From Escherichia coli (GTDB lineage: Bacteria; Pseudomonadota; Gammaproteobacteria; Enterobacterales; Enterobacteriaceae), in the NCBI RefSeq assembly GCF_050320075.1, contig NZ_CP190018.1: DNA of 64,000 nt; one strand, written 5' to 3'. Shown here piece after piece: positions 27,863-45,599 of this stretch. Both the position numbers and the translations under genes were made by a program. The notes below the pieces were generated by a model. That model was not told where the DNA came from, searched no databases, and worked only from the letters and a program-made list of their open reading frames with translations. How positions within the stretch are numbered: position 1 is the first letter of the stretch; every line of letters begins with the position of its first letter.

Positions 27863-30134
27863 GGAAAACTCCCCAGTGTTGCAGCGATGCCAGTGCCTGC
27901 TGTTCGAGTTGTTGATGATGTGCAATGGCTTGCGGTGGACAATGCAACGGCATTTGCAGTGCCGAAACGGGAAGTTGCGCCAGTTGATAATGCTCAAACA
28001 CCTGATGCGCCAGCGTCCCGCGTTCTCGTGGTGGTAGCCAGGCCATCGCCGCGCGTAAATCGGGCAGGGCGTTAATAAAATCGTCGTTACTCAGTTGATT
28101 TAAATGACTACTGAAACCGGCGATAAATGCCGGCTGACAGGCCAGTTGATGGCGGGCCAGCGCCAGCAAACCGTGCAGCGCTTCGCCGGATTGTGCCGGG
28201 GATAATTGCGCCAGCATTGTCAGCGCCGCTTCGGCACTGGCGTTGGGATGTTCCAGACGCATTAGTGCGCCAAGAGCCGCGCCGCGATCCAGCGCCGGGG
28301 CATGAATCGCCTGACTGCGGCGCTCCAGTAAGGCTACCGCCGCAGAAAGCGAAACGCCGGGTAAATTAACGCCGCTATGTAGATCGCGCAGGATATGGCA
28401 AAGCGCCTGCCAGCTATGCAGGTGAGCGTGAAACTCCTTTTCCTCCGGTTTGCCGTTGGATTCACACAGCCAGAGTGTGCGATCGATAGCCGCGCATAAC
28501 GTCGTCTGCAATATCTGCGCGCCTTGCATACCGCTGATTTCATCTAACCGCCATAAGGCATATAGCACTTCCAGCGCCTGGCCCATTTCGGCAAATTGAT
28601 TTTCCTGGGCGATTAATAATGTAAGTTGCTCCAGTAATTGTTGACTGAAAGACGCCAGACCCGCTAACGCCGCCTGGCTAAGACATGTGGTGATGATGCT
28701 GATTCCACCCGCGTCCAGCATATCGGCTTCTAATTTATGGCGTGCGGCTTCCTGGAGTGTGGCACCAAAGCAGGCGGCCTCAATCAATGCCGCATGCTGG
28801 CTAAGCGGGCGGGTTAATTTCCAGCATTCTTCACCGTTGCCTGCAAGTGACAGTGTACTTCCCTGCTGGCGCACAACCCCTGGGATCTCCAGTATTGCCA
28901 ACCGATGTAACACCTGACTTTGCGCCAGTCCATCGGGGGTAAAGCGATTTAAGGTAAGCTCCGCCGGAAGAGAGATTCCGGTACGTTCCAGTTCGCAGGT
29001 GACATCTTTTGGCAGAGGCGGTTGTGGCGTAGAAGGGGCAAGTTTACCGAATCCGTCACCCGCTAATGTGTCTATCAACGTTAGCAGAATCGGATCGGTA
29101 TCGGGATGAATAACGCCGCGATAGCTCCACGGCAACGGCGCGTTCAAGGCTTCTTTAATCAGCGAGCCTGCTATGGCATCCAGCCAGTCAGTGCGTAACG
29201 GTAGTGTATGACCGCGCAACTGTGCCAGCGCCATCGCATGCAGATGAGCGGCAGCCATATCAGCGGTAGAAGCGGGCAATTTGTGCTGGCGCAAACGGGT
29301 AAGGATAGTTTTTAGCAGTTGTTCACCGGCCTGCTGTAGGCCCCACTGCCAGCACCAGTTTTGCCAGACCGGGGCAGGCATACCAGAAAGGTATCCTGCC
29401 AGCACATCAAGGCGCTTTTCACTGTAGGGGGTGAGATAACAACCTGTAACGGCATCTGCCAGCTAGGGCAATTCCGGCGTGTTAATTTCCTGCGTGTATT
29501 CGCGCCACATCTTTGCCAGTGCCGGAGCATGCCAGCCGCCGCAGACGACTAACACGTCGCCATTGTTTTGCTGCATCGCCCATCCAATCCAGCGGGCCAT
29601 AAAGGCTTCGCGCTGACGATTGAGGGCATCTCCGGGGGAATCGCCCCGCAGTTGTGCAAAATAGTGCGCCAGCGCAGAGGGTAATGCAGTTTGCTGGCTT
29701 TCATCTTCGAACAAGTGATCCCACAGGGTGTCGCTGTTATCCATGCGGGTGGCACGCAGCAGTAAGGTCTGGCTGTCATCTTGCGTATCGGGTGATTCGT
29801 CTTCTTCTTCACTCTGCGCCCAGCAAGGCAAATCGATGAAGTAAGTTTGTGCCTGAATACGACGTGCGGCTTGTAGCGCCTGCCACTCCGGCGAAAATTC
29901 AGCAAATGGCGTCCAGGCACCACGCCCGGGGGCTGCACCGTCCTGATACTGGCAATAACTGTAAATAGCTACCGGAAGCTGGTGGGCTAAAAACAGTTCG
30001 TCTACCCGGTCATTAAAATCAGCCGGGCCTTCAATCAACACGTATCGTGGCCGCTGGCTTTCGATTAACGATTTCACCAGCCGGGCGCAGGCCGGACTAT
30101 GATGCCGGATGCCGACAATTAACGGCTCGCTCAT
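27855..30134 (-). pseudogene. yehM: yehM (759-codon frame) interrupted by a single in-frame TAG at 29463-29465
   Basis: ORFs 29463..30302 and 27855..29405 are in the same frame; codon-by-codon read gives ...INTPELP-stop-LADAVTGCYLTPYSEKRLDVLAGYLSGMPAP...; start MSEPLIVGIRHHSP at 30132-30134 with GAGGA RBS 10 bp after yehL stop. Confidence 0.75.
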
Positions 30135-30144
30135 GCATCTTTCC

Positions 30145-31222
30145 TCACGGCAGGCGGTGGCGGGCTTGATAATAAGCCTGCCAGTGAGCTTCTTTATGTG
30201 TGGCGACACGCTGTTCGAAGTAACGGCGCAGACGCGCGCGATCTTCTTCGTTATCTTTAACGATGGTTCCGGCAATACAGTCCACCAGATCGGCTGGCTC
30301 ACCTGCGCGATTCGCTAAAAACCAGGCGCGGACGCCCACTGCGTGGGCCACGTTCACGGCTTCAGCGGTGGATATAATTGCCGTCAGAGTATCCATTGAC
30401 GTTTTCTTTTCGCCGTTGGCACGCAGATCGCGGAAGGTGCGGACCAGTAACTCCAGTACCGCGTCAGGCACTTTATGCGGAATACCGCTATGGGCCAGCA
30501 AACGCGCCGAAGCACTGGCGACCAGTTCCAGCTCCTGGGCGAAATCCATAATCGGAAAGACGGTTTCAAAATCGAAGCGACGCTTTAGCGCGGCACTCAT
30601 CTCATTGACGCCGCGATCGCGGGTATTGGCAGTGGCAATAATATTAAAGCCTTCCCGCGCATAGAGCTGACTGGCTTCACCGGTGAGTTCCGGCACCGTC
30701 ATCACCCTGTCAGAAAGCATACCTAACAGACAGTCTTGTACTTCCAGCGGTGTACGCGTTATCTCTTCAAAACGGACGATTTTGCCGTCGCGCATTCCCT
30801 GGTAAAGCGGGGCAGGGACCAGTGCTTCCGTAGACGGACCATGGTTGATAAGCAGGGCGTAGTTCCATTTGATCTTCAGTAGTAGATGCGCCGCCCTGGA
30901 TGGTTAACCCGGCATCGCCGCTAATAGCGGTTGCCAGTAATTCAGACAGGAGAGATTTTGCGGTGCCCGGTTCCCCCACCAACATCAAACCGCGCCCGGT
31001 GGCAAGAGTGACTAACATACGTTCGACAGCGGAGGGACTAATCACCACTTTACGGCTAATATTTTGCGCGCTATCGCCAAGGATAAAAGCACGGGCCGCA
31101 GGCAAACTTAACTGCCAACCGGGCGGGCAAGGTGCGTTATCATTTTGTTTTAATTTTGCCAGTTCATCGGCGTATAACACAGCAGCAGGCGGACGCTGCA
31201 GATGATTATTCTGCGGTGACAT
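30145..31222 (-). pseudogene. yehL: yehL, MoxR-type AAA+ ATPase, split by a frameshift into two overlapping frames
   Basis: N-terminal frame ([12 protein letters not shown]...Walker [11 protein letters not shown]...GGASTTEDQ) ends at 30767; C-terminal part (…[41 protein letters not shown]…ATANTRD…) is in another frame bounded upstream by a stop at 30904-30906; total span 1078 nt is not a multiple of 3. Confidence 0.75.
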
Positions 31223-31338
31223 ATATTCATCCCTGAAATGTATTAATGAAATAAACGATATTTTACGCGCAATAAATGTTTGGCGCATTAGTTGTTTGAG
31301 CGAAAAATATCTGGAAAGCAGATCACAGTAAATAAAAA

Positions 31339-32178: not shown

Positions 32179-35100
32179 TTAATGGAAAATGACGTCGGGT
32201 GCGCTTAACGCTTCACTCAAATCAAACACATCAAGTTCGGCAAAAGTGACAGATTTATTGTCACGGTATACATGAAGAGAACGGAAGCTCATTAGCGCTT
32301 TGCTATCAACATTGTAGTGGTTAAAACCGGATGAAAACTTAAGGACCAGCCGGTACTCGCCCAGGTCATAGACAAATGCATTCTCATAGCCTGACTCCCA
32401 GCCTTTGTATCGCATTCCCATAAGTTGCCCAACGGTAGCAGATTTACCTTCCCAGCGATTCAAACTATTACTGGCTGACTCGTCAGGCGTGAGCAGTACT
32501 GTGCGCCGTGCCAATTGGCGAAAAGGCGGCATAATTTCGTAATCGGCAAAAAGCTGTGCAAACTCACTGCGCATTTCTGCTGCCATTTCTAACGGGTGGG
32601 CAATGCCAATCAGAGCATCGGCAGGCAGGTCAATTGGCTCATCTTGCTCATTGCAGAACTCCCCCTCAGCGGCCACACGAAAGGCGTTGAGTAAACGACG
32701 CGGTTCATTTGCCGGATAAACACCCCATATTAATCGCTGAGTAACCAGACGGGTAAAGGGATGATTAACAAACAGAGAATGAAAATCTGCCAGCGACCAG
32801 CGTCGGGTGGTGCGCAGGGCAGTTTCAAGACGCGGGAGCAGGTTTTTGCTCACCTGAGTGGCATCTTTTTTTAGCCCTTTTAGTCGGGCCAGTGCCTCGG
32901 GTGCTTTCAGTTGATCGTCATCGGCGCGCAACCGGGGAACGCTTTTCTGGCGAACGTTTTGCTGATCAAAGATAACCGGGTTAAGGTTTTCATCGAAGCG
33001 AACGGTAAATTGCCGTGGACCAAAATCAAAAATCAACGCCTGCGGATCATCAAGACCCAGTGTTGGGACTAATCTGTCCGCTAACTGTTCCTGGCTTAGC
33101 CCTCGATTTTCTGCGACCACCTGAAGAAATTCCGCCGCGTTATCACGTAAGGGGCGGGATTTCGCCCGTTGCGATATATGATGCAGCTGTATCAGTGCCA
33201 TATCATTATTCATCTGAGTAAGTATGTTCAGGCCGCTGACGGCACGGGCAGATTTGCCTTCCTGTGGCCAGGCAAGGATCTGTGTCGTCAGATCCCGTGC
33301 CGTGCTTTCGTCGCCAAAGAGACTTAACGCCAGAAATGCCCAGTTGTCTTTTGCGGGAGCACCAGCTTGTTGCCACGCGGTGAAAAGATCCCAGGCAAAA
33401 GCTGCCAGCGTTTGCGGCTGGCAGAAAGTTTTCAGTTGTTCCAGTCCGCTATAAAAACGTCCGCCCTGGGTAAAGCGCAGCATTTCGCCGATAATTTCCA
33501 GTGCGTCATCGGTAACAGGCTGATTATTCGTGATAAGGCGCGGCCTGGACCACATTGCCGGCTGCCAGAAATCAGGGGCTTTTGGAATGCGTGTCGGGTA
33601 AATCTCTATTGGACTCTGTTTAAGTAAATGCTCCAGGGCAGGCCATACATCTGTACGCTGCCAGCGGTTTGCCGCGGTTTGCAGCAATTCACCATGTCCC
33701 TGTTCGTAAAGTAAACGTAGGGCAAGTAATGCAGCTTCGCTATTATCGCTGGATTTGGTGAAGACAAGAGGGATAAGTGCAGTAGCCGTATGTTCCGGCC
33801 ATTGTAAAATCCACTGGCGAGCCAGATCACGCTGCGCCGCGAAACGTCGCCAGACGCGGGCAACGGGCAGGGCCAGTTCTGTTGCGCCAAAATTTAAAAT
33901 TAACGGAAATGTTTCTTTTGGACGATATGAAAAAGCCAACAGCAGACCTGGTAGAGCATCCAATCCGAAGATACTGAGAAAATAGTCCTCACCCGCGAAC
34001 AGATGCTTTTTCTCATTGATACGTAGCCAGAAAGTCAAAGCTATCTCACGCGGCAACTGTGCCAATAAATACAGGTTCCAGATACTCTTTTCCCGACGAT
34101 AGCGTGAGTAGCTGTCATTTTCCCATATGTTAATTAACACTTCTACGTGACCGCTGCGAAGCGCCTGTTCTGCTAATTGTGCTTCCGGGGAGTTCCAGCC
34201 ATTCAGGATCTCTTCAACCCGCCCCTGGTAGTAATGCCACTGAACAATGAGTGAATTGCGTGCAGCATCCAGTTTTCCGGGGAGTATATAATTCAGAAAC
34301 AGCCATACATCATCTCCAAAACCCAGCTCCTGTAGTACAACTCGTCCACTTTTATGTTCCATGCGTTCCGCAAGAGATTCCGTGCTGAAATAACGGGCAG
34401 ACTCAGTGGCGGCAAGCCTCTCTCGTTCGCCTGGTTGCCAGTAAACTTGCGGCGTTAATTCGAACGGTGCCAAATCAAGACGTGGAACTGTCATTTTTTT
34501 CTTACTACGCCACGGTGGTGAAACGAGGATTTCAGGCATTTGGCTGTTATCGGTGCTATCAATAACCGTTTTAGGCGGTGCCGATAAATAACTATTCAGC
34601 ACTGACCGGGCTTGAGTACTTAACCACGGCATCACCTCTTCTGCCAGTTGTGGCTGCGATGCCATCAGCGTTTGTAACAGCGTACGCCAGTATTCATCAC
34701 GTGCTTTTTGCTGTGCAGGCAGCTTTTTGTCTTCGATGATTGGATAACCAGGGCGCGTAGGTGGTTCTTTTAGCGCCAGCAGTTCTGCCAGTGCGGCAAG
34801 CGTCGCATGGGGGAAATTTTTACTGTATTTAGCTACACGTTGCAGGCTGGGTTTGTTTTTATCAGCAACTAACAGCAGGGTGCGGATGACCTGCGGATGG
34901 TTAATTTGTACCAGCAGACTGCCGCAATCTTCTTTATGGGCATACATTGCCAGGCGTGGAACGGCTGCCAGTCCTTGTTCGCGCAAAAGGGCAGCGCAGG
35001 CCGCGTAGCCGAAGTGGTTTTCATGCGACATGTAGCTGGCTTCCCGATCGCTAAATATATCCTGGCTCCAGTAGCGTTCGAGTTTTCTCACCGCTCTGGG

Positions 35101-35811
35101 GTCAATAGCAACAACTTTTAACCACTCCTTAGAATGAAAATGAGTCCACGGGCATTCAAGGCTTACCAACTCATTGGCGATTTCTGGTTTTTCCGGGAGG
35201 ATCAGAGCAATAAAAGGGCGGCGAACTTTGGTTATTCCTGGCAGTGCGGCAATGAGTTTGTCGGCGCAACGCTGCCAGCTGCTTTCCTCTGCCAGAGAGA
35301 GATGCTTACGCAGTCGGAGATCGAATTCGTTATAGGTTTCTGATCGATAACCATAGCCATAATCCTCGTTCTGATACTGCAATGTCACTAGCAGAGGATC
35401 ACTTTCATAACATCGTGTAATAAACTGGCGTGCAATCACCACCTCAGTCGCATATTCCAGTCCCTCTTGTTGGACGATTTCGTCGAGCAACTGTTGGCTA
35501 TCATTTTGCGCGATACAGGCTAGCGCCGCCATTGTCCGGGCCGGAACTGAGGGTTTGTGTTCGCCAATCAAGTTGATGGCCTGCGTAATGGCCGACTGCC
35601 ACTCCAGTGAAAAATTTTCATAACGCCAGACAATGTTTTTTTTCTTCTCAGCTTTTTGTAGCAATTCATCACCCAGTGTCTGGATGAGGCTTTCAGTGAT
35701 AACAGGCACCGGTTCGCCCGGCCAACTGCGATGGCTGAGCGGCGTTTTGCCTTTTTTATATTTCAGTTCCACTTGGGCGTTATCCGCCAGCCACGGTAAT
35801 TCCTTGTCCAT
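32179..35811 (-). CDS. yehI: Giant MolR-family protein YehI (1210 aa, DUF4132-like, no N-terminal WGR domain)
   Basis: MDKELPWLADNAQVELKYKKGK...; shares blocks with the two upstream paralogues (RKHLSLAEES.WQ.C..KLIAA.P, LDFGPRQFTV, RLIWGVY, LFADYE..PPFRQL); ATG 9 bp downstream of preceding gene stop. Confidence 0.9.
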   Translation of the reverse strand: MDKELPWLADNAQVELKYKKGKTPLSHRSWPGEPVPVITESLIQTLGDELLQKAEKKKNIVWRYENFSLEWQSAITQAINLIGEHKPSVPARTMAALACIAQNDSQQLLDEIVQQEGLEYATEVVIARQFITRCYESDPLLVTLQYQNEDYGYGYRSETYNEFDLRLRKHLSLAEESSWQRCADKLIAALPGITKVRRPFIALILPEKPEIANELVSLECPWTHFHSKEWLKVVAIDPRAVRKLERYWSQDIFSDREASYMSHENHFGYAACAALLREQGLAAVPRLAMYAHKEDCGSLLVQINHPQVIRTLLLVADKNKPSLQRVAKYSKNFPHATLAALAELLALKEPPTRPGYPIIEDKKLPAQQKARDEYWRTLLQTLMASQPQLAEEVMPWLSTQARSVLNSYLSAPPKTVIDSTDNSQMPEILVSPPWRSKKKMTVPRLDLAPFELTPQVYWQPGERERLAATESARYFSTESLAERMEHKSGRVVLQELGFGDDVWLFLNYILPGKLDAARNSLIVQWHYYQGRVEEILNGWNSPEAQLAEQALRSGHVEVLINIWENDSYSRYRREKSIWNLYLLAQLPREIALTFWLRINEKKHLFAGEDYFLSIFGLDALPGLLLAFSYRPKETFPLILNFGATELALPVARVWRRFAAQRDLARQWILQWPEHTATALIPLVFTKSSDNSEAALLALRLLYEQGHGELLQTAANRWQRTDVWPALEHLLKQSPIEIYPTRIPKAPDFWQPAMWSRPRLITNNQPVTDDALEIIGEMLRFTQGGRFYSGLEQLKTFCQPQTLAAFAWDLFTAWQQAGAPAKDNWAFLALSLFGDESTARDLTTQILAWPQEGKSARAVSGLNILTQMNNDMALIQLHHISQRAKSRPLRDNAAEFLQVVAENRGLSQEQLADRLVPTLGLDDPQALIFDFGPRQFTVRFDENLNPVIFDQQNVRQKSVPRLRADDDQLKAPEALARLKGLKKDATQVSKNLLPRLETALRTTRRWSLADFHSLFVNHPFTRLVTQRLIWGVYPANEPRRLLNAFRVAAEGEFCNEQDEPIDLPADALIGIAHPLEMAAEMRSEFAQLFADYEIMPPFRQLARRTVLLTPDESASNSLNRWEGKSATVGQLMGMRYKGWESGYENAFVYDLGEYRLVLKFSSGFNHYNVDSKALMSFRSLHVYRDNKSVTFAELDVFDLSEALSAPDVIFH

Positions 35812-35820
35812 GCTCTTTCC

Positions 35821-38800
35821 TTATTCAAACAGGGCTTCAATATCGTTAATGAGTTCGCTGGCGGTGATGTCGTCGAGCACGGAGAACTGCGCTTCCTGAG
35901 TTGAATTACTCCCCCAGCCATAGCTTTCCGCTTTGCCTTCCCATAGCCACAGCTTGCTTAAGACCTGCTCAGCGCTAAGATCGGCTGGTGACATACCCAC
36001 CGCAAAACCTTCGTCGATTTCCATGATTAACGACCAGCGACCGAGAGGTTTGATCATCCATCCGATCCAGCCTCCATCCTGTGGTTCGCCCTTTATCCAG
36101 CCTTTATTTGCCAGCCCCATGACCCGGCCGCTCGGGCATTTTCTGCCTGCCCAGCGGGTCAGTTCGCTGGCGTTGCGCTCGGCTTCTGTCAGGGCGTAAC
36201 TGTTACGTTCAAGCTGACGGAACGGTGGTAGCAGTTCGTAGTCGGCAAAAAGCTGACCAAAGGCGACAGCATCCGTCGGTGATATTTCCAGAACGTGAGG
36301 AATGCCAACAGAGATATCGCCTTCCTGCAAGGTGAAAAGATCATCGTCAGCGGTGCTGTAGCTGTTATCTTCCGCCACCCTAAAGCACGCCTGTAGCTGG
36401 TTTTCGGCGCTATAAACGCCCCAAATCAGACGGCGGGTTAAGTGACGAACCAGCGGATGCTCAACCAGGAAGAGCTGAAAGTTTTCCGGCGACCAGCGGC
36501 GGCGCAGGCACATGGCGGATTCCAGCCTTGCTACCTGCTGGGCGGCGACGGTACGCGCATCTTTTTTCAGCAATTTGTAGCGGTTAACAGCATCGTTTGC
36601 CTGTGATTCATCATCGCTTTTATTGGGTTTAGGTAAGTCTTTCAGGCGGCTGCCGGAAACATCGCGCACAAACGGTTTTAAGGTTTCATCAAAGCTGACG
36701 GTGAACTGCCGTGGGCCAAAATCCAGCAGCAGCGAACCGTTATCATCCAGACCGAGAGCCGGTGCTAACCGATCTTCAAGCTCCGCTACCGTCAGTTCGC
36801 GACTTTCGGCAATGTCGGCAATTTTCTCTTTCGCCCGCTCCTGTAATGCTTTGAATTTCAGTTTCTGGGCAATGCCGTTAAGCTGCATCAGGGCGATATC
36901 ACTACTGATAGCGGCGAGGATATCCAGCCCGACGGTGGCGCGTTTATGCTGGGATTCACCAGGCCAGGCGCGTATTAATGGCGTCAGTTTGCGGGCGGTG
37001 TCATCGTTACCGAGAACGCCTAACGCAGTGAACGCCCAACTCTCTTTCGACGGCGCGCCAGCGGTCTGCCAGGCGGTAAACAGATCCCAGGCAAATTCAG
37101 CCAGTGAGTCGGCGGTACAGGCATCTTTCACCTGCAATAATCCCGGATACAGCGCCTCCTCCTGATGGAAGCGGAGCATTTCACCGAGGTGCTGGAGTGC
37201 GCTATCGGGCAGTGATTGGGCATTTGCTTTTAATACCGGGCGGGTCCAGATCGATGGCTGATAAAAGGCCGGAAGAGTGGGGATTTTTGTCGGGTGATTA
37301 TCTAAGGGATCGAGCGCAAGCATAGCGTTCACCGCATCTGTTACTTCCGGCTGGTTATAACGCCGGGCGATTTCTTGCAGTAATGGTTGATGACCGTTTT
37401 CGGTAAGCATACGCAATGCAGCGCGGGCGTTATCCTGTGCTTCACCGGCTTTGCCGAGCGCCGCAGACAGCAGGCCGGTAATGGCGTGTTCCGGGTATTT
37501 CAGCAGCCAGGTGCGGGCGTCTTGTCGTAGGGTTTTGAGTTTGTTGAAGGCGCGGGCGACGGCAGGTGCCAGCTCACTCGCTGCGAAGTAATTCGTTATG
37601 GGCAAGGCTTCCTGTGGATAGCGTGCAAGTGAGTTTACTAACCCAGGTAATCCTTTGAGTCCAAAATGTAACATGGCGTATTCGGTATCGGTATGCGGAG
37701 ATAGAGTAAGGGCATTCCATGCTCTTACTGCTTTCTCCAGCGGCAATGTTGTCAAAATCCCCAAATGCCAATAATGCCCGGTAGGTGAATGAAACACCTT
37801 AAATTCACTTATTAAAGTTGAATAATCTTCATTTAGCCATGCCTCAACTACCGCTTCGGGAGCTTTAATATATGTACCAGCGATCCGTCGTTGAAAACCC
37901 ATCCTTGCCAACAGATTGGCAGTACTTTCTTCATGACTAACCGTGATGTGTTTTGAATACCAGATATATTTCGCCAAAAGTTGATTACTGATTTCTTCTG
38001 TCAGATAACTGATTGGCTCAATACCTAATGGTGCTAAATCAAGCACTGGAATCGGCGATTTTTTCTTTTTCGAAAGCCATGGTGGGGAGACTACTATGGC
38101 CGGCAGTAGATCGGCGCTGGCATGGTTTGAGGGCTGTGTCAGTTGTTGCTGGCATGATTTCAGCACTGCAACTGCGGGTGTCGAAAGCCAGGGAATGACC
38201 TGTTCTGCTAGTGTCGGTTGCGAGATAAGCATCGTCATTAGCATAATGCGCCAACTATTCTCTTCTTTTTGCACTAGAAGTTCCGCCAGTGCTGCCAGTG
38301 CTGCGTGTGGGAACGCAGCGCAGGCTTTCGTCATTCGATCGTGACAGCGTTTAGTATGCCCTGCTACACGTATAAGCAGTGTTAATGCGAACGGATGATT
38401 GATATGACGCAACACATCGGCGCAGTAGTCACTTGCGACATAGGGAGCAAATCGGGGCAGGGCCGCAACACCTTGCTCCTGTAATACGGTGGCTGACCAT
38501 ATCGCACCACAATAGTAATCATCAAAAATGGCATATGGCTCGTGATATTTTTCTAATGAGGCAAGAATGTGCTCATCAGTCGCCACTATTTTTAGCCACT
38601 CCAGCGAGGGTAATTTCTTTTGCCCCAGTAGACGCTGGGCAATTTCATGTGCAATTTCTGGTTTTTCGGGCAATAACAAAGCAATTAATGGTTGCCGCCA
38701 TTCTGGAATATGTGGAACTGCGGCAATAAGTTTTTGTGCACATTTTTGCCAGAGAGACTCTTCCGCCAGTGATAAATGTTTACGTAGGCGTAATTCAAAG

Positions 38801-39615
38801 CTGGAATATTGCTGCAAATAATCAGGTGAAATGCCAGACGACAGGAAAACAATATTATTGTTGACATAATCCCATTCAATAGATATTTGTTGAAGATGTA
38901 TTATTACATCAGTAGCATATTCCAGACCGCCTTCCTGAATAATCTGATCCATAACATCCGCACGCTCTTTATATCTCGTGCAGTGCAGTTCAAGTGCCGC
39001 GAGTACAGCCATTACCGGTGATGGTAATTTTGTCGTTTTCGGGCTGTTAATCAGATCGATCGCCTGAGCGATGAAGTTTTGCCACTCTAAAGTACAGGCG
39101 CTGAAGTCAAATGTAGCTGTTTTGTTATCCCGTTGCGACACGCCACAGGCTAAGCGACGTAACTGGGTTAATTTATCTACAGGTGTAACAGGATCTCCGG
39201 GAAAGCGGCGATGGCTTAAGGTGGTGGGTACGACTTCAAGCGGAAAAACGACAGCAATATCTTTTGCCAGCCACGGTAAAATAACGTCTGTATTTTTGTC
39301 AGCCACGTAGAATTCTGGTGTAACTGAGGGCTGTTCCTGAATGATGGTAGAAAAGTCAGATAATTCGAGAGATTTCGTTACCGTTCGAGTATGTTTCGAT
39401 GTAGCATTCTCCGCATGTTCCACATACCCCTTTTTCGTTTTCTCCGCAATCAGCTTGAGTTCCGCTTTTTCCGCCGCCGCAGCATCTGCAAAGCTTTTTA
39501 CCTGACTTTGCCCGTTGGTGCCGACTTTGCCCCAACTGATATTCAGTTCGTTTCCCTGCTGCTCCACCGCCCAGAATTTATGTGATTTTTCGTCCTGATA
39601 AATATAGGTTTTCAT
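35821..39615 (-). CDS. Giant WGR-domain MolR/YehH-family protein, paralogue A (1264 aa)
   Basis: N-terminal WGR domain MKTYIYQDEKSHKFWAVEQQGNELNISWGKVGTNGQSQVKSFADAAAAEKAELKLIAEKTKKGY; remainder homologous to YehI and paralogue B; 12-bp gap with AAGGA RBS after paralogue B stop. Confidence 0.85.
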   Translation of the reverse strand: MKTYIYQDEKSHKFWAVEQQGNELNISWGKVGTNGQSQVKSFADAAAAEKAELKLIAEKTKKGYVEHAENATSKHTRTVTKSLELSDFSTIIQEQPSVTPEFYVADKNTDVILPWLAKDIAVVFPLEVVPTTLSHRRFPGDPVTPVDKLTQLRRLACGVSQRDNKTATFDFSACTLEWQNFIAQAIDLINSPKTTKLPSPVMAVLAALELHCTRYKERADVMDQIIQEGGLEYATDVIIHLQQISIEWDYVNNNIVFLSSGISPDYLQQYSSFELRLRKHLSLAEESLWQKCAQKLIAAVPHIPEWRQPLIALLLPEKPEIAHEIAQRLLGQKKLPSLEWLKIVATDEHILASLEKYHEPYAIFDDYYCGAIWSATVLQEQGVAALPRFAPYVASDYCADVLRHINHPFALTLLIRVAGHTKRCHDRMTKACAAFPHAALAALAELLVQKEENSWRIMLMTMLISQPTLAEQVIPWLSTPAVAVLKSCQQQLTQPSNHASADLLPAIVVSPPWLSKKKKSPIPVLDLAPLGIEPISYLTEEISNQLLAKYIWYSKHITVSHEESTANLLARMGFQRRIAGTYIKAPEAVVEAWLNEDYSTLISEFKVFHSPTGHYWHLGILTTLPLEKAVRAWNALTLSPHTDTEYAMLHFGLKGLPGLVNSLARYPQEALPITNYFAASELAPAVARAFNKLKTLRQDARTWLLKYPEHAITGLLSAALGKAGEAQDNARAALRMLTENGHQPLLQEIARRYNQPEVTDAVNAMLALDPLDNHPTKIPTLPAFYQPSIWTRPVLKANAQSLPDSALQHLGEMLRFHQEEALYPGLLQVKDACTADSLAEFAWDLFTAWQTAGAPSKESWAFTALGVLGNDDTARKLTPLIRAWPGESQHKRATVGLDILAAISSDIALMQLNGIAQKLKFKALQERAKEKIADIAESRELTVAELEDRLAPALGLDDNGSLLLDFGPRQFTVSFDETLKPFVRDVSGSRLKDLPKPNKSDDESQANDAVNRYKLLKKDARTVAAQQVARLESAMCLRRRWSPENFQLFLVEHPLVRHLTRRLIWGVYSAENQLQACFRVAEDNSYSTADDDLFTLQEGDISVGIPHVLEISPTDAVAFGQLFADYELLPPFRQLERNSYALTEAERNASELTRWAGRKCPSGRVMGLANKGWIKGEPQDGGWIGWMIKPLGRWSLIMEIDEGFAVGMSPADLSAEQVLSKLWLWEGKAESYGWGSNSTQEAQFSVLDDITASELINDIEALFE

Positions 39616-39627
39616 TGCAAAGTCCTT

Positions 39628-42600
39628 TTAATCAAAAAGTGATTCGATGTCGTTAATGAGTTCGCTGGCGGTGATGGCATCAAGCGCGGAGAACGTGAGC
39701 GAGGGCTGTGTACTGTAGCGTTCCCCTGGTGAAGTGATTTTTACGCTTTCAACAGGTAGCAGGTCGCTATACCCCGTTTCGCCATAAATTAATGAAAAAT
39801 GTTCTGTTTCAAGTTCGAGAGCGCCATAAGGGGTAGATTTGCGCATCGCATAGACGCTGCCGCTTTCTTCCAGACGTTGCCAGCCTCGACGTTCCAGCCC
39901 GACAATGCGCCCGGCCTGGCAAAGACGTCCTTGCCAGCGTATCAATTCATGGGTATCACGTTCATTATCAGTAAGGTGGTAATAACCACGATCGAGTTGG
40001 CGAAAGGGAGGAAGCTTTTCGTAATCAGCATAAATTTGCCCAAATGCAGTGGCGGATTCAGGAGATATTTCCAGCACATGCGGTATACCGATGTTTCCTG
40101 CTGGCAGCGTGAATAACTCATCCTGCGCATCGCTGTAAGTGCTGTCTTCTGCGACCCGGAAGCAGGCGATCAGCGTGTTTTCCTCAGTATATACCCCCCA
40201 TAACACCCGTCGGGTTAAGTGACGTACCAGCGGATGCTCCACCAGAAACAGGCGGAACTGCTCTGCCGTCCAGCGTCTGCGCTGGCACATATCCTGCTCC
40301 AGACGATCAATCTGCTGGCTGGCAATGGCGTGCACATCTTTCTTCAATTGTTTGAAGAGGTTAACGGAGTCAGTTGCCAGTGTTTGATCATCGCTCTGAT
40401 TTGGTTTGGGTAAATCTTTCAGGACTTTGCCGTTTGCATCGTGCACTACAGGTTTTAAGGTTTCGTCAAAACCAACGGTGAATTGACGTGGGCCGAAATC
40501 CAGTATCAGCGAGCCACTGTTATCAAGCCCTAAATCTGGAGCCAGGCGGTCTTCCAGTTCAGCCATAGTCAGCCCACGGTTTTCAGCAACTATGTTGATT
40601 TTCTCGCGGGCATGTTCCTGTAATGCTTTGAATTTAATTTTTCGCGCGATGCCATTAAGCAGCATTAGCGCAACATCGCTGCCAATATCAGCTAATACAT
40701 CCAGCCCGTAAACCGCGCGTTTATGCTGGGATTCACCCGGCCAGGCACGGATAAGCGGGGTTAATTTACGTGCGGTGTCGTCATTGCCTAAAATCCCAAG
40801 CGAAGTAAATGCCCAGTTTTCTTTTGCGGGTGCGCCAGCTTCTGTCCATGCCGTGTAGAGATCCCAGCCAAAGTCAGCCAGTGATTCGTGGGTGAAGGTC
40901 TCTTTGATGGTCGCCAGCCCAGCGTAGGAGGTAATGTCGCGTGGAAAGCTCAACATTGTGCCCAGGTGGCGCATAGCGTCATCTGGCAGAGGCAGGTTGT
41001 TACTTTTAAGCCGTGGTCTGCGCCATAAGGTGAACTGATAAAAGCCGGGCAGTGGGGCGATTTTAGCGGGATATTCTTCCAGCGGATCGCTATCGAACAA
41101 TGTTGCCAGCGCAGCTAAAACATCAGGTTGGTTGTATCTCCGGCCGATTTCTTCAATCGTTTCTCGCTGGTTTAATTTCACTAGCAGGCGGAATGCCTGG
41201 CGGGCATATTCCCGATTTTGGCACGGTTTGCCCAGCGCCAAAGGCAGTAGCCCGGCGGCGGCATGGCGCGGGTTATTTGCCAGCCAATTAATGGCATCCT
41301 TGTAAGCCATTTTTTTCTGTAACCGCTGCGCCATTGGTAAGGCTAGTTCACTGGCCCCAATAAAGAGGGTGAATATCCACAGTCGTTGATGATCTCGTTG
41401 CAAGCAGGTCATAAACGCAGGAATGGCCGTACTACCAAAAACTGCCAGAATCTCTTTCTCACCTGAATATCGCTCCTCAATGATTATTTGGTTGAGAAAT
41501 GAAATCGCCTGTTGTCCCGGTAAGTAACAAAGCGCAGATAGATTCCAGCTTTTGTTGGCATTGTTGTGATATTTCGCAAACTCAGCTTTTAGTGCTGGAA
41601 AATCAAAGCGCAACAAGGCATCAACAGCGCTTTGCGGTATATATTTTTTTTCATGTAAGTCATCTTCGCAATGCAGCCATTCATTAAAACCTAATTGCCA
41701 AAGGATTTGTTGTTCTGGTGTAAAAGGAATGAAAGATGTCTCCCAGCTTTCTTTTTCAATTAGTGGCAGGTCGGTAAATAAGGTTTGCTGTGATGACTGA
41801 TATTGCGCGATTTCACTGAATCTGGATATGTCAGTATGACTGATTAACTCTGTAATTCCTGGCGTGATGTCAGTGACTGCAGGGATGGGAAGCACCGGTA
41901 AATCAAATACGGGTATTACATTCGTTTTCTTATTTATTACCCACGGTGGAGCGACAAACAGCTCCGGCAACATATCCGCAGTGGCGTATTCACATTCTTC
42001 AGCGACTAACTGAGTACGACATTCAGATAAGATGCCTGCCGCTTTAGCATTAACCCAGGGAATGACGTCAGTGACTAAATCTGGCGTGGCGGTAATCAGT
42101 TTGACAAGCGCTTTACGCCACTGTGCATCTTCATGTATTGCCAGTAAAGTTGCATAAGCGGCAAGAGCCGCAGCGGGATGTTTTTGACAGGCTTTGCTTA
42201 AGTATTCCAGGTGCTTTTTCTTGCCAATTACACCGAGGATCAGAATTTGAATCGCATCCGGGTGATTCGTTTTCCATAGCCATTTGACAAGATCTTCAGT
42301 CTCGCTGATGCGCTCGAAGAGATAAGTGGGATTGTCAGAATGCTCTTCCGTAAACTCAAGAAGTATCCGGCTTACACCGCGCACCCCATTATTTGCCAGC
42401 AACATTGCCAGATAAGCGCGAAAATCATGATACAACGGTGGGAAGTCGTATTTTTCTGCTGTAGTCAGAGCGGCGTCATCGGTTACCACCAGTCTTAACC
42501 AGGTCATCGCCGGAACGTTTTGATCTGCATAACGTAGCGCCATAGCATTGGCAATATCCGGGCGTTCAGGGAGCAGTAACGCCGCAAAAGGTTGCCGTGC

Positions 42601-43425
42601 TGGGGATAGCGAGGGAATAGCAGCGAGAACTTTATCTACACAGCGTTGCCACTCATCTTCTGAAGCGAGTGAAAGATGATGACATAGACGTTGATGCCAG
42701 TTCGGTAGTGATTCTGCTTTGAGATCAGGGGGAATAATGGTGGTGACGTCGGCTTTTACTGGTTTATATTTGAGTTGAAGAGCGAGAAGGGCGATTTCAA
42801 CGGTAGTTTCCAGACCACAGCGAATGACTAAGTCATCGACCAGTTCATCTGTAGAGTAAGAGTTCCATAAATTCCAGAGCAATGCCGCATCAGATTGTAT
42901 ACTTCCTGTTTGTTGATTATTCAGAATTCGCCTTTGTAACTCGGCAAACGCCAGCTGCCAGTTTTCAGGATAAGAGCGGTAATTATTGTCGGGGTCATAT
43001 GCCCTGGTGTTATTCGCGATGCGCTTCCATATTTGGCCATCTTTGTACAGATAATTGATCTCTCTGGGGCGAGAGCGATGAGGAAAAGCAAATCGATTAA
43101 TATCGCCAGTTACCGGAATGACTGCATCATCAGCCACCCATGGGCGTTTGTTTTTACTCTCAGGGGAGGTTTCAACTTCAGGAGTGGCTTTGGTGATGGG
43201 GGGGATATGCACGTTTGCTAAAGCATTTTCCACATAGCCTTTTTTCGTTTTCTCTGCGATCAGCTTAAGCTCCGCTTTTGCCGCTGCCGCAGCATCCGCA
43301 AAACTTTTTACCTGGTTTTGCCCTTTGGTGCCAACTTTTCCCCAACAGATATGCAACTCGTTTCCCTGTTGCTCCACCGCCCAGAATTTATGTGATTTTT
43401 CGTCCTGAAAGATAAAGTGCCTCAT
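39628..43425 (-). CDS. Giant WGR-domain MolR/YehH-family protein, paralogue B (1265 aa)
   Basis: N-terminal WGR domain MRHFIFQDEKSHKFWAVEQQGNELHICWGKVGTKGQNQVKSFADAAAAAKAELKLIAEKTKKGY; C-terminal blocks LDFGPRQFTVGFDETLKPVV, RRVLWGVY, IYADYEKLPPFRQL, ELINDIESLFD. Confidence 0.85.
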   Translation of the reverse strand: MRHFIFQDEKSHKFWAVEQQGNELHICWGKVGTKGQNQVKSFADAAAAAKAELKLIAEKTKKGYVENALANVHIPPITKATPEVETSPESKNKRPWVADDAVIPVTGDINRFAFPHRSRPREINYLYKDGQIWKRIANNTRAYDPDNNYRSYPENWQLAFAELQRRILNNQQTGSIQSDAALLWNLWNSYSTDELVDDLVIRCGLETTVEIALLALQLKYKPVKADVTTIIPPDLKAESLPNWHQRLCHHLSLASEDEWQRCVDKVLAAIPSLSPARQPFAALLLPERPDIANAMALRYADQNVPAMTWLRLVVTDDAALTTAEKYDFPPLYHDFRAYLAMLLANNGVRGVSRILLEFTEEHSDNPTYLFERISETEDLVKWLWKTNHPDAIQILILGVIGKKKHLEYLSKACQKHPAAALAAYATLLAIHEDAQWRKALVKLITATPDLVTDVIPWVNAKAAGILSECRTQLVAEECEYATADMLPELFVAPPWVINKKTNVIPVFDLPVLPIPAVTDITPGITELISHTDISRFSEIAQYQSSQQTLFTDLPLIEKESWETSFIPFTPEQQILWQLGFNEWLHCEDDLHEKKYIPQSAVDALLRFDFPALKAEFAKYHNNANKSWNLSALCYLPGQQAISFLNQIIIEERYSGEKEILAVFGSTAIPAFMTCLQRDHQRLWIFTLFIGASELALPMAQRLQKKMAYKDAINWLANNPRHAAAGLLPLALGKPCQNREYARQAFRLLVKLNQRETIEEIGRRYNQPDVLAALATLFDSDPLEEYPAKIAPLPGFYQFTLWRRPRLKSNNLPLPDDAMRHLGTMLSFPRDITSYAGLATIKETFTHESLADFGWDLYTAWTEAGAPAKENWAFTSLGILGNDDTARKLTPLIRAWPGESQHKRAVYGLDVLADIGSDVALMLLNGIARKIKFKALQEHAREKINIVAENRGLTMAELEDRLAPDLGLDNSGSLILDFGPRQFTVGFDETLKPVVHDANGKVLKDLPKPNQSDDQTLATDSVNLFKQLKKDVHAIASQQIDRLEQDMCQRRRWTAEQFRLFLVEHPLVRHLTRRVLWGVYTEENTLIACFRVAEDSTYSDAQDELFTLPAGNIGIPHVLEISPESATAFGQIYADYEKLPPFRQLDRGYYHLTDNERDTHELIRWQGRLCQAGRIVGLERRGWQRLEESGSVYAMRKSTPYGALELETEHFSLIYGETGYSDLLPVESVKITSPGERYSTQPSLTFSALDAITASELINDIESLFD

Positions 43426-43520
43426 TCTGCATCCCTGTAATTTTATCCAGTTGAATGCTGATGCTACCAGTATTTATGCGGGTTAGAGAGAGACAAAATC
43501 GCAAGAAAACAACTTTAGGA

Positions 43521-43554
43521 ATTTATAAAGAAAAGGCGCTGTCGATACAGCGCC
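43521..43554 (-). terminator. Intrinsic terminator of metG
   Basis: GGCGCTGT-CGAT-ACAGCGCC hairpin followed on minus strand by T-rich tract. Confidence 0.5.
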
Positions 43555-43565
43555 TTGAAAGGAGA

Positions 43566-45599
43566 TTATTTCACCTGATGACCCGGTTTAGCACCGGCAT
43601 CCGGGCTTAGCAGGAAAATATCTTTCCCGCCAGGACCGGCAGCCATCACCATGCCTTCGGAGATACCGAAGCGCATTTTACGTGGTGCCAGGTTAGCCAC
43701 CATAATGGTGTGACGACCAATCAGTGCCTGCGGATCCGGGTAAGCAGAACGAATGCCGGAGAAGACATTGCGTTTTTCACCGCCGAGATCCAGCGTCAGG
43801 CGCAGCAGTTTGTCGGAACCTTCAACAAACTCTGCGTTTTCAATCAGTGCCACGCGCAGGTCAACTTTGGCGAAGTCATCAAAGGTGATAGTTTCCTGGA
43901 TTGGATCGTCAGCCAGCGGGCCAGTTACCGGCGCGGCAGCGGCTTTTACTTCTTCTTTAGATGCTTCCACCAGTGCTTCAACCTGCTTCATATCGATGCG
44001 GTTATACAGCGCCTTGAACGGATTCACTTTATGGCCCAACAGCGGTTGCTGGATACCATGCCAGGTCAGTTCTGTATTGAGGAATGCTTCTGCACGCTCG
44101 GTCAGTTTCGGCAGTACCGGCTTCAGGTAAGTCATCAGCACGCGGAACAGGTTGATGCCCATCGAGCAAATTGCCTGCAGGTCGGCATCGCGGCCTTCCT
44201 GTTTCGCCACCACCCACGGAGCCTGTTCATCGACATAGCGGTTAGCCAGGTCAGCCAGCGCCATAATTTCGCGTACTGCTTTACCAAATTCGCGGCTTTC
44301 CCACGCTTCACCAATCACTTCAGCGGCATCCGTGAAGGTTTTGTACAACTGCGGGTCAGCCAGTTCGCTTGCCAGCACGCCGTCAAAACGCTTGTTGATA
44401 AAGCCAGCGTTACGGGATGCCAGGTTAACCACTTTATTCACGATATCGGCATTCACACGCTGAACGAAATCTTCCAGGTTGAGATCGATATCATCAATGC
44501 GCGAAGAGAGTTTCGCAGTGTAGTAGTAACGCAGGCTGTCAGCATCAAAATGATTCAGCCAGGTACTGGCTTTAATAAAGGTGCCGCGAGACTTGGACAT
44601 CTTCGCGCCGTTCACCGTCACATAGCCATGAACAAACAGGTTAGTCGGCTTGCGGAAGTTGCTGCCTTCCAGCATGGCAGGCCAGAACAGGCTGTGGAAG
44701 TAAACGATATCTTTACCGATGAAGTGGTACAGCTCGGCGGTGGAATCTTTCTTCCAGTATTCATCGAAGCTGGTGGTGTTGCCGCGTTTGTCGCACAGAT
44801 TCTTGAAGGAACCCATGTAGCCAATCGGTGCGTCCAGCCAGACGTAGAAATATTTGCCCGGCGCGTTCGGAATTTCAAAACCGAAGTAAGGGGCGTCGCG
44901 GGAGATATCCCACTGTTGCAGGCCGGATTCAAACCACTCCTGCATTTTGTTTGCCACCTGCTCCTGCAACGCACCGCTGCGGGTCCATGCCTGCAACATT
45001 TCGCTGAAAGAGGGCAGATCAAAGAAGAAGTGTTCAGAATCACGCATTACCGGGGTAGCGCCAGAAACCACCGATTTCGGCTCGATCAGTTCAGTCGGGC
45101 TGTAGGTCGCACCGCAGACTTCGCAGTTATCGCCGTATTGATCCGGGGATTTACATTTCGGGCAGGTGCCTTTTACAAAACGGTCCGGCAGGAACATGCC
45201 TTTTTCCGGATCGTAAAGCTGAGAGATGGTGCGGTTTTTAATAAAACCGTTTTCTTTCAGGCGAGAGTAGATAAGTTCTGACAACTGGCGGTTCTCTTCG
45301 CTGTGCGTCGAGTGATAGTTGTCATAGCTGATGTTAAAGCCTGCGAAATCAGTCTGATGCTCCTGACTCATTTCGCCAATCATCTGCTCCGGGGTGATAC
45401 CGAGCTGCTGAGCTTTCAGCATGATCGGTGTGCCGTGGGCATCGTCGGCGCAGATGAAGTTGACCTCGTGGCCGCGCATTCGCTGGTAACGGACCCAGAC
45501 ATCAGCCTGGATGTGCTCCAGCATATGGCCGAGGTGGATTGAGCCGTTAGCGTACGGCAGTGCGCACGTCACCAGAATTTTCTTCGCGACTTGAGTCAT
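43566..45599 (-). CDS. metG: Methionyl-tRNA synthetase
   Basis: ATG 45597-45599 gives 677-aa [31 protein letters not shown] (HIGH motif), KMSKS motif, zinc knuckle CPKC...CEVC. Confidence 0.95.

What the first reader, a model, noticed from the sequence alone, without database searches (positions are those of the whole stretch)
35821..43425. Two tandem, full-length WGR-domain giant paralogues with mosaic near-identical segments at both gene ends
Paralogues A and B are only moderately similar at protein level over most of their length, but their 5' ends (about 39420-39615 versus 43225-43425, WGR domain) are nearly identical in DNA, including a ~50-bp stretch that is almost unbroken, and their 3' ends share an identical 27-mer (TCGTTAATGAGTTCGCTGGCGGTGATG). 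That pattern suggests ectopic gene conversion between tandem paralogues. From memory, K-12 carries only one MolR-like gene next to yehI, and it is a pseudogene, so this strain appears to have an extra intact copy.
Basis: partly seen in the sequence, partly recalled or inferred. Interest (0 to 1): 0.55.

Follow-up and report, generated by a model that had tools for sequence, protein, structure and literature searches.

The report
Tandem molR-like genes exchanging WGR ends
Two old, neighbouring giant genes of unknown function in E. coli keep the first ~200 bases of their coding sequence alike by recombining with each other, and the same recombination deleted one copy in K-12; this is a clear but fairly ordinary case of concerted evolution.

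Summary
The sequence features are real. Two intact tandem genes, A (35821-39615, the molR orthologue) and B (39628-43425), encode WGR+DUF4132 proteins that are 47% identical. Their first 204 nt are 86% identical, with a perfect 39-mer. Their last 67 nt are 85% identical, with the 27-mer. "Near-identical" overstates this.

Gene conversion is well supported at the 5' end. dS is 0.62 there and saturated elsewhere. Across E. coli haplotypes, nt 16-200 show no fixed A/B differences but at least 21 shared polymorphisms. The WGR tract clusters by genus (Escherichia versus Klebsiella), whereas the gene bodies cluster by orthology. At the 3' end the evidence is marginal, and a conserved C-terminal peptide explains much of the similarity.

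The "extra copy" reading is backwards. The order metG-B-A-yehI occurs in Klebsiella oxytoca and in other Escherichia species, so it is ancestral. About 30% of complete E. coli genomes keep it. K-12's single pseudogene is a deletion chimera, with B's promoter and first codons joined to A's body.

Beyond the finding, residues ~70-700 of A are hypervariable within E. coli (37-59% aa identity between allele classes, which are shared with other Escherichia species). Protein function remains unknown.

The parts
39628..43425 (-). Gene B, the metG-proximal WGR+DUF4132 paralogue (1265 aa, intact). It is absent from K-12-like genomes.
   Evidence: ORF. Pfam WGR aa 5-67 and DUF4132 aa 999-1182. Annotated as WP_001215556.1 in the 100%-identical record NZ_CP042973.1. 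The B body is found in 1643/5426 complete E. coli genomes.
35821..39615 (-). Gene A, the orthologue of the K-12 molR (yehF/yehH) pseudogene (1264 aa, intact here).
   Evidence: ORF. Pfam WGR aa 7-69 and DUF4132 aa 988-1173. It is 92.2% nt identical to the K-12-type single gene over its full length. Annotated as WP_000860770.1.
43223..43426 (-). 5' homology (conversion) tract in B, encoding the WGR domain. It contains the perfect 39-mer at 43370-43408.
   Evidence: the repeat finder D3: 204 nt, 86% identity, spacing 3810. Alignment. dS and shared-polymorphism tests.
39413..39616 (-). 5' homology (conversion) tract in A, encoding the WGR domain. It contains the perfect 39-mer at 39560-39598. Only the first 5 codons (MKTYI versus MRHFI) carry fixed A/B differences.
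39628..39694 (-). 3' box of B: the last 22 codons plus stop, encoding the conserved C-terminal helix ...FSALDAITASELINDIESLFD. Includes the 27-mer at 39650-39676.
   Evidence: the repeat finder D6: 67 nt, 85%.. The AF2 model places a terminal helix here in A.
35821..35887 (-). 3' box of A: the last 22 codons plus stop. Includes the 27-mer at 35843-35869.
39616..39627 (-). 12-nt B-A spacer carrying A's ribosome-binding site (AAGGA). It marks the tandem state.
   Evidence: Sequence. The junction (B 3' end, spacer, A 5' end) is present in 1634/5426 genomes. The same 12-nt spacing is seen in all tandem loci fetched.
37500..39412 (-). Hypervariable segment of A (aa ~67-705, the N-terminal half of a predicted alpha-solenoid). 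Allele classes within E. coli share only 37-59% aa identity.
   Evidence: Sliding-window diversity. Identity matrices. Coordinate mapping. Structure model and HEAT/ARM-like fold hits.
43426..43565 (-). metG-B intergenic region. It holds the metG terminator (43533-43556) and the region homologous to the K-12 molR promoter. It is nearly identical to the region upstream of K-12's single gene.
   Evidence: Alignment of K-12 versus B upstream. Terminator scan. BglJ-RcsB activation of the K-12 molR promoter is from PMC3950696. That it drives B-A-yehI as one operon here is inferred.
32179..35811 (-). yehI, a third DUF4132 paralogue that lacks WGR (1210 aa), 9 nt downstream of A. It takes no part in the end-tract homology.
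   Evidence: Its 3' end differs at 33-38 of 66 nt from A and B.

Best explanation
A and B are ancient tandem paralogues. The duplication predates the Escherichia-Klebsiella split. They encode WGR / alpha-solenoid / DUF4132 proteins of unknown function.

Their bodies have diverged to saturation at synonymous sites. The ~185-bp WGR-coding tract (gene nt ~16-200) has been exchanged repeatedly between the two genes by homologous recombination. This could be non-reciprocal gene conversion, unequal crossover, or both, and it has happened in both genera.

The tract holds perfect blocks of up to 39 bp. That is longer than the ~25-bp minimal processing segment reported for RecA-dependent recombination in E. 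coli (my own knowledge: Shen and Huang 1986). It can therefore keep acting as a recombination substrate, and each exchange restores the identity that allows the next one (inferred).

A reciprocal or intrachromosomal crossover in the same tract removes one 3.8-kb repeat unit. The product is a single chimeric gene with B's promoter and first codons fused to A's body. That is the state seen in K-12 and in about 70% of complete E. coli genomes.

The 3' box (last 22 codons) is conserved mainly because it encodes a constrained C-terminal helix. Occasional exchange within Escherichia is possible.

Shown: the sequence patterns, their phylogenetic distribution and the chimeric structure. Inferred: the recombination pathway, operon status and any functional reason for keeping the WGR domains alike.
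For: (1) Window A versus B: dS is 0.62 in WGR codons 7-65. It is above 2.2 or saturated in every other segment, including the DUF4132 region, where amino-acid conservation is also high (70-90% in 30-codon windows). Same-codon use at identical residues is 73% versus 46% (p = 2e-4).

(2) Eight A and nine B genes from nine tandem E. coli haplotypes (A of the ninth is split by an insertion): fixed A/B differences occur only at nt 5-15. None occurs in nt 16-200, against at least 21 shared polymorphisms. Mean A-B distance (17/150) is similar to A-A (12) and B-B (15). At least 12 recombination events are needed to explain 155 nt.

(3) The tandem order metG-B-A-yehI occurs in K. oxytoca. The same B-A-yehI order occurs in K. 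spallanzanii, E. whittamii and Escherichia sp. E1V33. The variable parts cluster by orthologue: K. oxytoca B is 45-47% identical to Escherichia B and 27-31% to Escherichia A; K. oxytoca A is 35-58% identical to Escherichia A and about 28-31% to Escherichia B.

(4) The WGR tract clusters by genus instead. Mean paralogue distance is 0.135 in Escherichia and 0.192 in Klebsiella. Escherichia-Klebsiella orthologue distance is 0.267 for A and 0.236 for B. Site-bootstrap support is 100% and 94%.

(5) A-B WGR dS (0.62) is lower than Escherichia-Klebsiella metG dS (0.81).

(6) Allelic dS within the WGR tract (0.36-0.61 in eight of ten pairs) exceeds that of the rest of the same allele pairs (0.08-0.55, mostly 0.15-0.4). 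This is expected if two loci share one pool of variants.

(7) The K-12-type single gene is B-like through the upstream 150 nt and about the first 165 nt of coding sequence, then A-like (92% over the whole gene). All 7 single genes sampled start MRHFIY like B, and all 8 tandem A genes start MKTYIY.

(8) Genomes with the B body (1643) nearly equal genomes with the tandem junction (1634), so the loss always removes B's body.
Against: In this genome the two tracts differ at 17 of 150 sites, so no recent conversion is visible here. Within-genome A-B pairs are only weakly closer than between-genome pairs (permutation p = 0.09, n = 8). Much of the sharing may therefore arise through strain-to-strain recombination plus unequal crossover, rather than strictly intragenomic non-reciprocal conversion.

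The sample is 8 A and 9 B genes from tandem genomes and 7 single-gene haplotypes, chosen by BLAST rank and not at random. With no fixed differences inside the tract, the K-12 crossover cannot be placed more precisely than nt ~16-170. The 3'-end signal is marginal and absent in Klebsiella. No experiment was done.
Confidence: 0.8

Rival explanations
1. No exchange at all. The ends look alike only because the WGR domain and the C-terminal helix are under strong purifying selection, perhaps with extra nucleotide-level constraints near the start codon.
For: dN is very low in the WGR tract (0.036). The C-terminal peptide is conserved as far as Erwinia. The 3'-end excess of synonymous identity is only marginal (p = 0.05). 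In Klebsiella the two 3' ends are not close to each other.
Against: The DUF4132 region is also highly conserved in protein, yet it has saturated dS and 48% same-codon use against 73% in WGR. The same tract differs by 20-27% between Escherichia and Klebsiella orthologues, so its silent sites do change freely. Selection alone predicts neither 21 shared polymorphisms without a fixed difference nor clustering by genus.
Confidence: 0.05
2. This strain gained B as an extra copy, by horizontal transfer or recent duplication, on top of a K-12-like single-gene ancestor.
For: Only about 30% of complete E. coli genomes carry B. K-12 has a single gene.
Against: The same B-A-yehI order with 12-nt and 9-14-nt spacers occurs in K. 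oxytoca, K. spallanzanii, E. whittamii and Escherichia sp. E1V33, with orthologous bodies. metG lies immediately upstream of B wherever the contig reaches that far: K. oxytoca, E1V33 and E. albertii. dS between A and B is saturated outside the tracts, so the duplication is not recent. The single gene is a B-start/A-body chimera, as a deletion would leave.
Confidence: 0.05
3. The shared variation in the WGR tract comes mainly from cycles of unequal crossover (deletion to one gene, then regain of the tandem state by recombination with DNA imported from other strains), not from intragenomic non-reciprocal gene conversion.
For: Within-genome A-B pairs are barely closer than between-genome pairs (p = 0.09). 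The one-gene and two-gene states are both common. Single genes with the same A-type body carry different B-type 5' ends: the K-12 type resembles SCU-113 B and the MS20677 type resembles ST131 B. The whole locus is a mosaic of deeply diverged alleles shared across Escherichia species.
Against: Some genomes do show locally shared rare variants between their own A and B. SCAID shares T78 (gene nt 78), seen in its B only among the nine B genes, and T87; Chlos shares T96/C100/T137 and differs at only 6 sites. This is not truly exclusive of the main explanation, because both are ectopic recombination through the same tract.
Confidence: 0.3

Closest known systems
E. coli K-12 molR (yehF b2115 + yehH b4499 pseudogene) and yehI (b2118)
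   Same: Gene A is the syntenic orthologue of K-12 molR: 92% nt identity over 3.8 kb, between metG and yehI. All of these genes carry DUF4132, and A, B and molR also carry an N-terminal WGR domain.
   Different: Here A is intact, and a second intact paralogue, B, sits between it and metG. K-12's gene is disrupted and is a B-5'/A-body chimera. YehI lacks WGR and does not share the end tracts.
Concerted evolution of bacterial paralogues by gene conversion (textbook cases recalled from my own knowledge: tufA/tufB in Salmonella, rRNA operons)
   Same: Paralogue segments cluster by lineage rather than by orthologue. Synonymous divergence is reduced in the tract. Polymorphisms are shared between the copies.
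   Different: Only a ~185-bp domain-coding tract, about 5% of the gene, is homogenised, while the rest is saturated. The copies are adjacent direct repeats, so the same tract also causes copy-number loss. Homogenisation is loose (86% identity here), not near-perfect as in tuf genes.
Deletion by unequal crossover between tandem direct repeats, giving chimeric genes
   Same: The single gene has the promoter and first codons of the upstream copy and the body of the downstream copy. Exactly one 3.8-kb repeat unit is missing.
   Different: The repeat that mediates it is short and only ~86-90% identical. The event is old enough for the chimera to be the majority state in the species and to have decayed to a pseudogene in K-12.
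HEAT/ARM-repeat alpha-solenoid scaffolds (CAND1, karyopherins, PP2A A subunit)
   Same: The AF2 model of A aa 65-1264 is mostly stacked helical repeats. The best Foldseek matches are such solenoids.
   Different: The matches are weak (E about 1e-3, TM 0.14, ~11% identity) and reflect general architecture only. The WGR, DUF4132 and C-terminal beta domains have no counterpart in those proteins.

Membership tests
WGR-domain proteins (Pfam PF05406) | Significant match to the WGR profile at the N-terminus | tested here: met
   A aa 7-69 and B aa 5-67, each E = 1.1e-17. The WGR part also matches PDB 2ra8 by sequence.
DUF4132 proteins (Pfam PF13569; the MolR/YehI family) | Full-length match to the DUF4132 profile in the C-terminal part | tested here: met
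   A aa 988-1173, E = 3e-51. B aa 999-1182, E = 8.9e-48. Model positions 1-179 of 179 are covered.
Orthologue of K-12 molR | Same genomic position (metG ... yehI) and full-length high DNA identity | tested here: met
   Met for A only: 92.2% over 3796 nt. B matches K-12 molR only at nt 1-197 (90.9%), at the conserved C-terminal part (70.6%) and at the last 67 nt. Synteny is shown.
Interparalogue gene conversion / concerted evolution | Synonymous divergence in the tract much lower than in flanking, equally constrained coding sequence | tested here: met
   5' tract dS 0.62 versus above 2.2. Same-codon use 73% versus 46-48%, p = 2e-4.
Interparalogue gene conversion / concerted evolution | Shared polymorphisms between paralogues and few or no fixed differences in the tract | tested here: met
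   nt 16-200: 0 fixed differences and at least 21 shared. 3' box: 5 fixed and 3-4 shared.
Interparalogue gene conversion / concerted evolution | Tract sequences cluster by lineage while the rest of the genes cluster by orthologue | tested here: met
   Met for the 5' tract (bootstrap 100% for Escherichia, 94% for Klebsiella). Not met for the 3' box in Klebsiella: A-B distance is 20-25 of 66 nt, against orthologue distances of 10-21.
Interparalogue gene conversion / concerted evolution | Evidence of a recent conversion in this particular genome (identical or nearly identical tracts) | tested here: not met
   There are 17 differences in nt 19-168 between the window's A and B, about the population mean.
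Known anti-phage defence systems (PADLOC-DB v2.0.0) | Match of any component to a defence-system profile | tested here: not met
   No hits for A, B, YehI or for YehQ, YehP, YehL, YehM.

The most novel reading that the evidence does not exclude
The metG-yehI locus could be a diversity-generating cassette system. The conserved WGR tract on the 5' side and the conserved C-terminal half on the 3' side would act as recombination anchors. These would let strains, and the two paralogues, swap a hypervariable ~630-residue alpha-solenoid 'recognition' module. The WGR-solenoid-DUF4132 proteins would be polymorphic sensors of an uncharacterised conflict (for example anti-phage) system, working with the linked MoxR-type ATPase, DUF5682, vWA and SWIM proteins YehLMPQ.

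The evidence does not exclude this. Allele classes are 37-59% identical within E. coli and are shared across Escherisia species. The genes are linked to yehLMPQ homologues in Escherichia, Klebsiella, Erwinia and Intestinirhabdus. Pseudogenisation is frequent. However, nothing here tests any function. dN/dS in the variable part is 0.17-0.44, which indicates relaxed or purifying selection rather than positive selection. There is no match in PADLOC.
Probability: 0.15. Interest if true: 0.7.

Novelty: new member of a known kind. Interest (0 to 1): 0.4.

Why it matters
This is a clean natural example of one short domain-coding tract doing two things. It keeps two otherwise saturated paralogues alike at one end, and it serves as the breakpoint for copy-number loss.

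It also corrects how the K-12 molR/yehF-yehH pseudogene should be read. That gene is a deletion chimera of two ancestral genes, not a decayed single gene.

In practice, pangenome and orthology pipelines will confuse A, B and the chimera. The region is also already used as a marker and insertion site in ST131 (PMC9334617).

The hypervariable solenoid segment with alleles shared across species flags an unstudied E. coli locus whose diversity, in this small sample, is far higher than that of its own C-terminal half. That may justify functional work on the yeh cluster.

Tried and rejected
Dead ends and rejected ideas:

I reran it on the first 1200 residues.
- PADLOC gave nothing for A, B and YehI or for YehLMPQ. 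NCBIfam hit only a WGR-containing Leptospira family, far below its cutoff.
- Literature searches for DUF4132, molR/yehI, yehLMPQ, WGR+SWIM+MoxR+vWA and yehH/yehG returned only the ST131 insertion-site paper and the BglJ-RcsB promoter paper. The yehH/yehG and WGR/anti-phage searches were noise.
- An internal patch with raised third-position identity (A aa 973-1027, window 36535-36699) was tested as a further conversion tract. Escherichia A-B third-position distance is 33-45% against 42-62% across genera. That is only a hint, so I did not claim it.
- The test for within-genome versus between-genome similarity of WGR tracts was not significant (p = 0.09).
- dN/dS gave no sign of positive selection in the variable part.
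- The fold search gave only generic HEAT/ARM solenoid matches.
- I considered recent duplication, horizontal gain of B and pure purifying selection. I rejected them for the 5' tract, as set out under the rival explanations.


Full report
**What is in the window**

The minus strand carries, in transcription order, metG (43566-45599), gene B (39628-43425, 1265 aa), gene A (35821-39615, 1264 aa), yehI (32179-35811, 1210 aa) and yehK. The spacers are 140 nt (metG-B), 12 nt (B-A) and 9 nt (A-yehI). The window is 100% identical to E. coli CFSAN061768, where A and B are annotated as intact DUF4132 proteins. Pfam finds WGR at the N-terminus and DUF4132 near the C-terminus of both.

**Checking the observation**

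- A and B are 47% identical in protein.
- The repeat finder reports two in-register direct repeats: 39413-39616 versus 43223-43426 (204 nt, 86%) and 35821-35887 versus 39628-39694 (67 nt, 85%).
- The 27-mer occurs exactly at 35843 and 39650.
- The longest perfect block is 39 nt, at gene nt 18-56.

The coordinates and the mosaic pattern are therefore right, but "nearly identical" is too strong. The two WGR tracts differ at 17 of 150 sites.

The 5' pattern is not chance and not just protein conservation.
- dS is 0.62 in WGR codons 7-65 and above 2.2 or saturated in all other segments. That includes the DUF4132 region, whose amino-acid identity is also high.
- At residues identical in both proteins, the codon is also identical in 73% of cases in WGR, against 46% in the body (Fisher p = 2e-4).
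- For the last 22 codons the figures are dS 0.60 and 71% (p = 0.05), based on about 14.5 synonymous sites. That is marginal.

**Population evidence**

I fetched eight further tandem haplotypes, making nine with the window; in one of them A is split by an insertion. I also fetched seven single-gene haplotypes from complete E. coli genomes.

- In the first 200 nt, fixed A/B differences occur only at nt 5-15 (MKTYI versus MRHFI).
- From nt 16 to 200 there is no fixed difference, but at least 21 sites segregate for the same two bases in both A and B.
- Mean A-B distance in nt 19-168 (17) is about the same as A-A (12) and B-B (15).
- The four-gamete test needs at least 12 recombination events in 155 nt.
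- Allelic dS inside the tract (0.36-0.61 in eight of ten pairs) is higher than in the rest of the same allele pairs. That is expected when two loci share one pool of variants.
- Within-genome A-B pairs are only slightly closer than between-genome pairs (p = 0.09). This genome shows no recent event.

**Outgroups and polarity**

One scan of species-representative genomes and ORF typing gave the following.
- metG-B-A-yehI occurs in Klebsiella oxytoca and Escherichia sp. E1V33.
- B-A-yehI occurs in K. spallanzanii and E. whittamii, on loci that do not reach metG.
- B lies next to metG in E. albertii, where the contig ends.
- Erwinia has a single A-like gene.

In the variable part, K. oxytoca B is 45-47% identical to Escherichia B but 27-31% to Escherichia A. 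K. oxytoca A is 35-58% identical to Escherichia A but about 28-31% to Escherichia B. The duplication therefore predates the genus split.

In the WGR tract the grouping is reversed. Mean paralogue distance is 0.135 in Escherichia and 0.192 in Klebsiella, against orthologue distances of 0.267 (A) and 0.236 (B). Bootstrap support is 100% and 94%. This is the standard signature of concerted evolution. It excludes a simple nucleotide-level constraint, because the tract does diverge between genera. A-B WGR dS (0.62) is also below Escherichia-Klebsiella metG dS (0.81).

**K-12 and the "extra copy"**

MG1655 has metG, yehF (a WGR fragment), the yehH pseudogene and yehI. That is one disrupted 3.8-kb gene.
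- Its body is A-type: 92% over its full length.
- Its upstream 150 nt and about its first 165 coding nt are B-type.
- All seven single genes sampled start MRHFIY like B, while all tandem A genes start MKTYIY.

Together with the outgroup data, this makes the single gene a deletion chimera, formed by a crossover between the two WGR tracts that removed one 3810-bp unit.

The B body is present in 1643 of 5426 complete genomes and the B-spacer-A junction in 1634. The tandem state is thus a ~30% minority that includes ST131 and O157:H7. The loss essentially always removes B's body. This fits the WGR tract being the effective recombination substrate and the 67-nt 3' box not being one.

Single genes with the same A-type body carry different B-type 5' ends: the K-12 type resembles SCU-113 B and the MS20677 type resembles ST131 B. 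Either the deletion happened more than once, or the 5' end has since recombined between strains.

**The 3' box**

The last 22 codons encode FSxLDxITASELINDIExLF(D/E). This peptide is conserved in Klebsiella and recognisable in Erwinia, and it is modelled as a terminal helix.
- In Klebsiella the A and B boxes differ at 20-25 of 66 nt, which is more than the orthologue distances (10-21).
- In Escherichia A-B is 7-16.
- There are 5 fixed differences and 3-4 shared polymorphisms.
- The window's 27-mer reflects two silent sites (GAACTCATT) that A and B share here. Most other strains have GAGCTG/GAGCTA at those sites.

I conclude that selection explains most of this similarity. Some exchange within Escherichia is possible but not shown.

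**What the genes may be**

No function is established.
- The AF2 model of A aa 65-1264 (27-sequence alignment, mean pLDDT 74.8) is a long alpha-helical repeat array, followed by mixed alpha/beta domains and a terminal helix. Foldseek gives only weak, generic HEAT/ARM solenoid matches.
- No PADLOC match exists for A, B, YehI or YehLMPQ.
- DUF4132 genes are followed by yehL/M/P/Q homologues in Escherichia, Klebsiella, Erwinia and Intestinirhabdus. This suggests one functional module, which is an inference.
- The K-12 molR promoter is activated by BglJ-RcsB (PMC3950696). The homologous region lies upstream of B here.

**An unexpected feature beyond the finding**

Among E. coli A alleles, nt ~200-2100 (aa ~67-705, window ~37500-39412) show a mean pairwise difference of 30-40%, with a maximum of 55%. 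The remaining 1.7 kb differs by about 5%.
- In protein, the variable part is 37-59% identical between allele classes, while the C-terminal 560 aa are 93-98% identical.
- Classes are shared across species: ST131-type with Escherichia sp. MOD1 (82-83%), Chlos-type with E. whittamii (86%), and the short 1010-aa type with E1V33 (90%).
- dN/dS there is 0.17-0.44, so the region is less constrained but not shown to be positively selected.
- B is less variable (87-95% nt).
- Disruption is common: K-12, both genes in O157:H7, and IS1, IS4 or IS1203 insertions. In ST131 a blaCTX-M-15 transposon sits in this region (PMC9334617). In this strain yehL and yehM are themselves pseudogenes.

**Verdict**

Gene conversion or ectopic recombination is well supported for the 5' WGR tract and unproven for the 3' box. 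The "extra copy" is in fact the ancestral state, and K-12 carries the recombinational deletion product.

The mechanism is a known kind (concerted evolution plus unequal crossover) in a new, well-resolved example. The hypervariable solenoid segment is the part most worth following up.

Noticed in passing
window 37500-39412 (gene A aa ~67-705); compared with L003, L004, L009, L010, L012, L016, L020, L021, L026: The N-terminal half of A's solenoid is hypervariable within E. coli: 37-59% aa identity between allele classes, against 93-98% for the C-terminal 560 aa. The allele classes are shared with other Escherichia species. A length varies from 1010 to 1264 aa.
   Followed up: partly
window ~27855-31288 (yehM and yehL, minus strand): In this strain the downstream partner genes are pseudogenes. 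yehL (AAA+ MoxR-type ATPase) is frameshifted and yehM (DUF5682) has an internal stop, while B, A, yehI, yehP and yehQ are intact.
   Followed up: no
L005/L007 (O157:H7), L002/L055 (K-12), L013 (W619), L017 (F11); hits H20, H22, H45: The DUF4132 genes are often disrupted. Both A and B are pseudogenes in O157:H7. K-12 and F11 share a W15R change at an invariant WGR tryptophan, plus stops. IS1, IS4 and IS1203 insertions occur in other strains. A blaCTX-M-15 transposon sits here in an ST131 sublineage (PMC9334617).
   Followed up: partly
L028:4053-7898 (Intestinirhabdus alba): A single gene next to metG has a WGR domain fused to a YehI-like body (54% identical to YehI, 40% to A). E. coli YehI starts exactly at the PWLAD motif that follows WGR and its linker in A and B. 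WGR has therefore been lost from, or gained by, the YehI lineage.
   Followed up: no
L024:10001-13720 (Klebsiella grimontii); L021:758-3544 (Escherichia sp. MOD1-EC7003): K. grimontii has a single gene with an A-type start (MKTF), which indicates an independent loss of B. In MOD1-EC7003 the gene in B's position is a third type (50% identical to A, 43% to B).
   Followed up: no
window 36535-36699 (A aa 973-1027) and the matching part of B: This is an internal patch in the DUF4132 region with third-position identity of 0.65-0.70 against a background of 0.38. Outgroup comparison gives only a weak hint of an old exchange.
   Followed up: yes
window 43566-45599 (metG): metG dS between this strain and other E. 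coli is 0.13-0.19, and yehI dS is 0.08-0.25. From memory this seems high for E. coli core genes and might reflect diversity linked to the variable locus. No genome-wide baseline was computed.
   Followed up: no
hit H29, NZ_OZ501614.1 (111-kb E. coli plasmid), 81639-83724: A metG copy with 94% identity lies on a plasmid. In all, 221 matches to the 13.7-kb query region were on plasmids.
   Followed up: no
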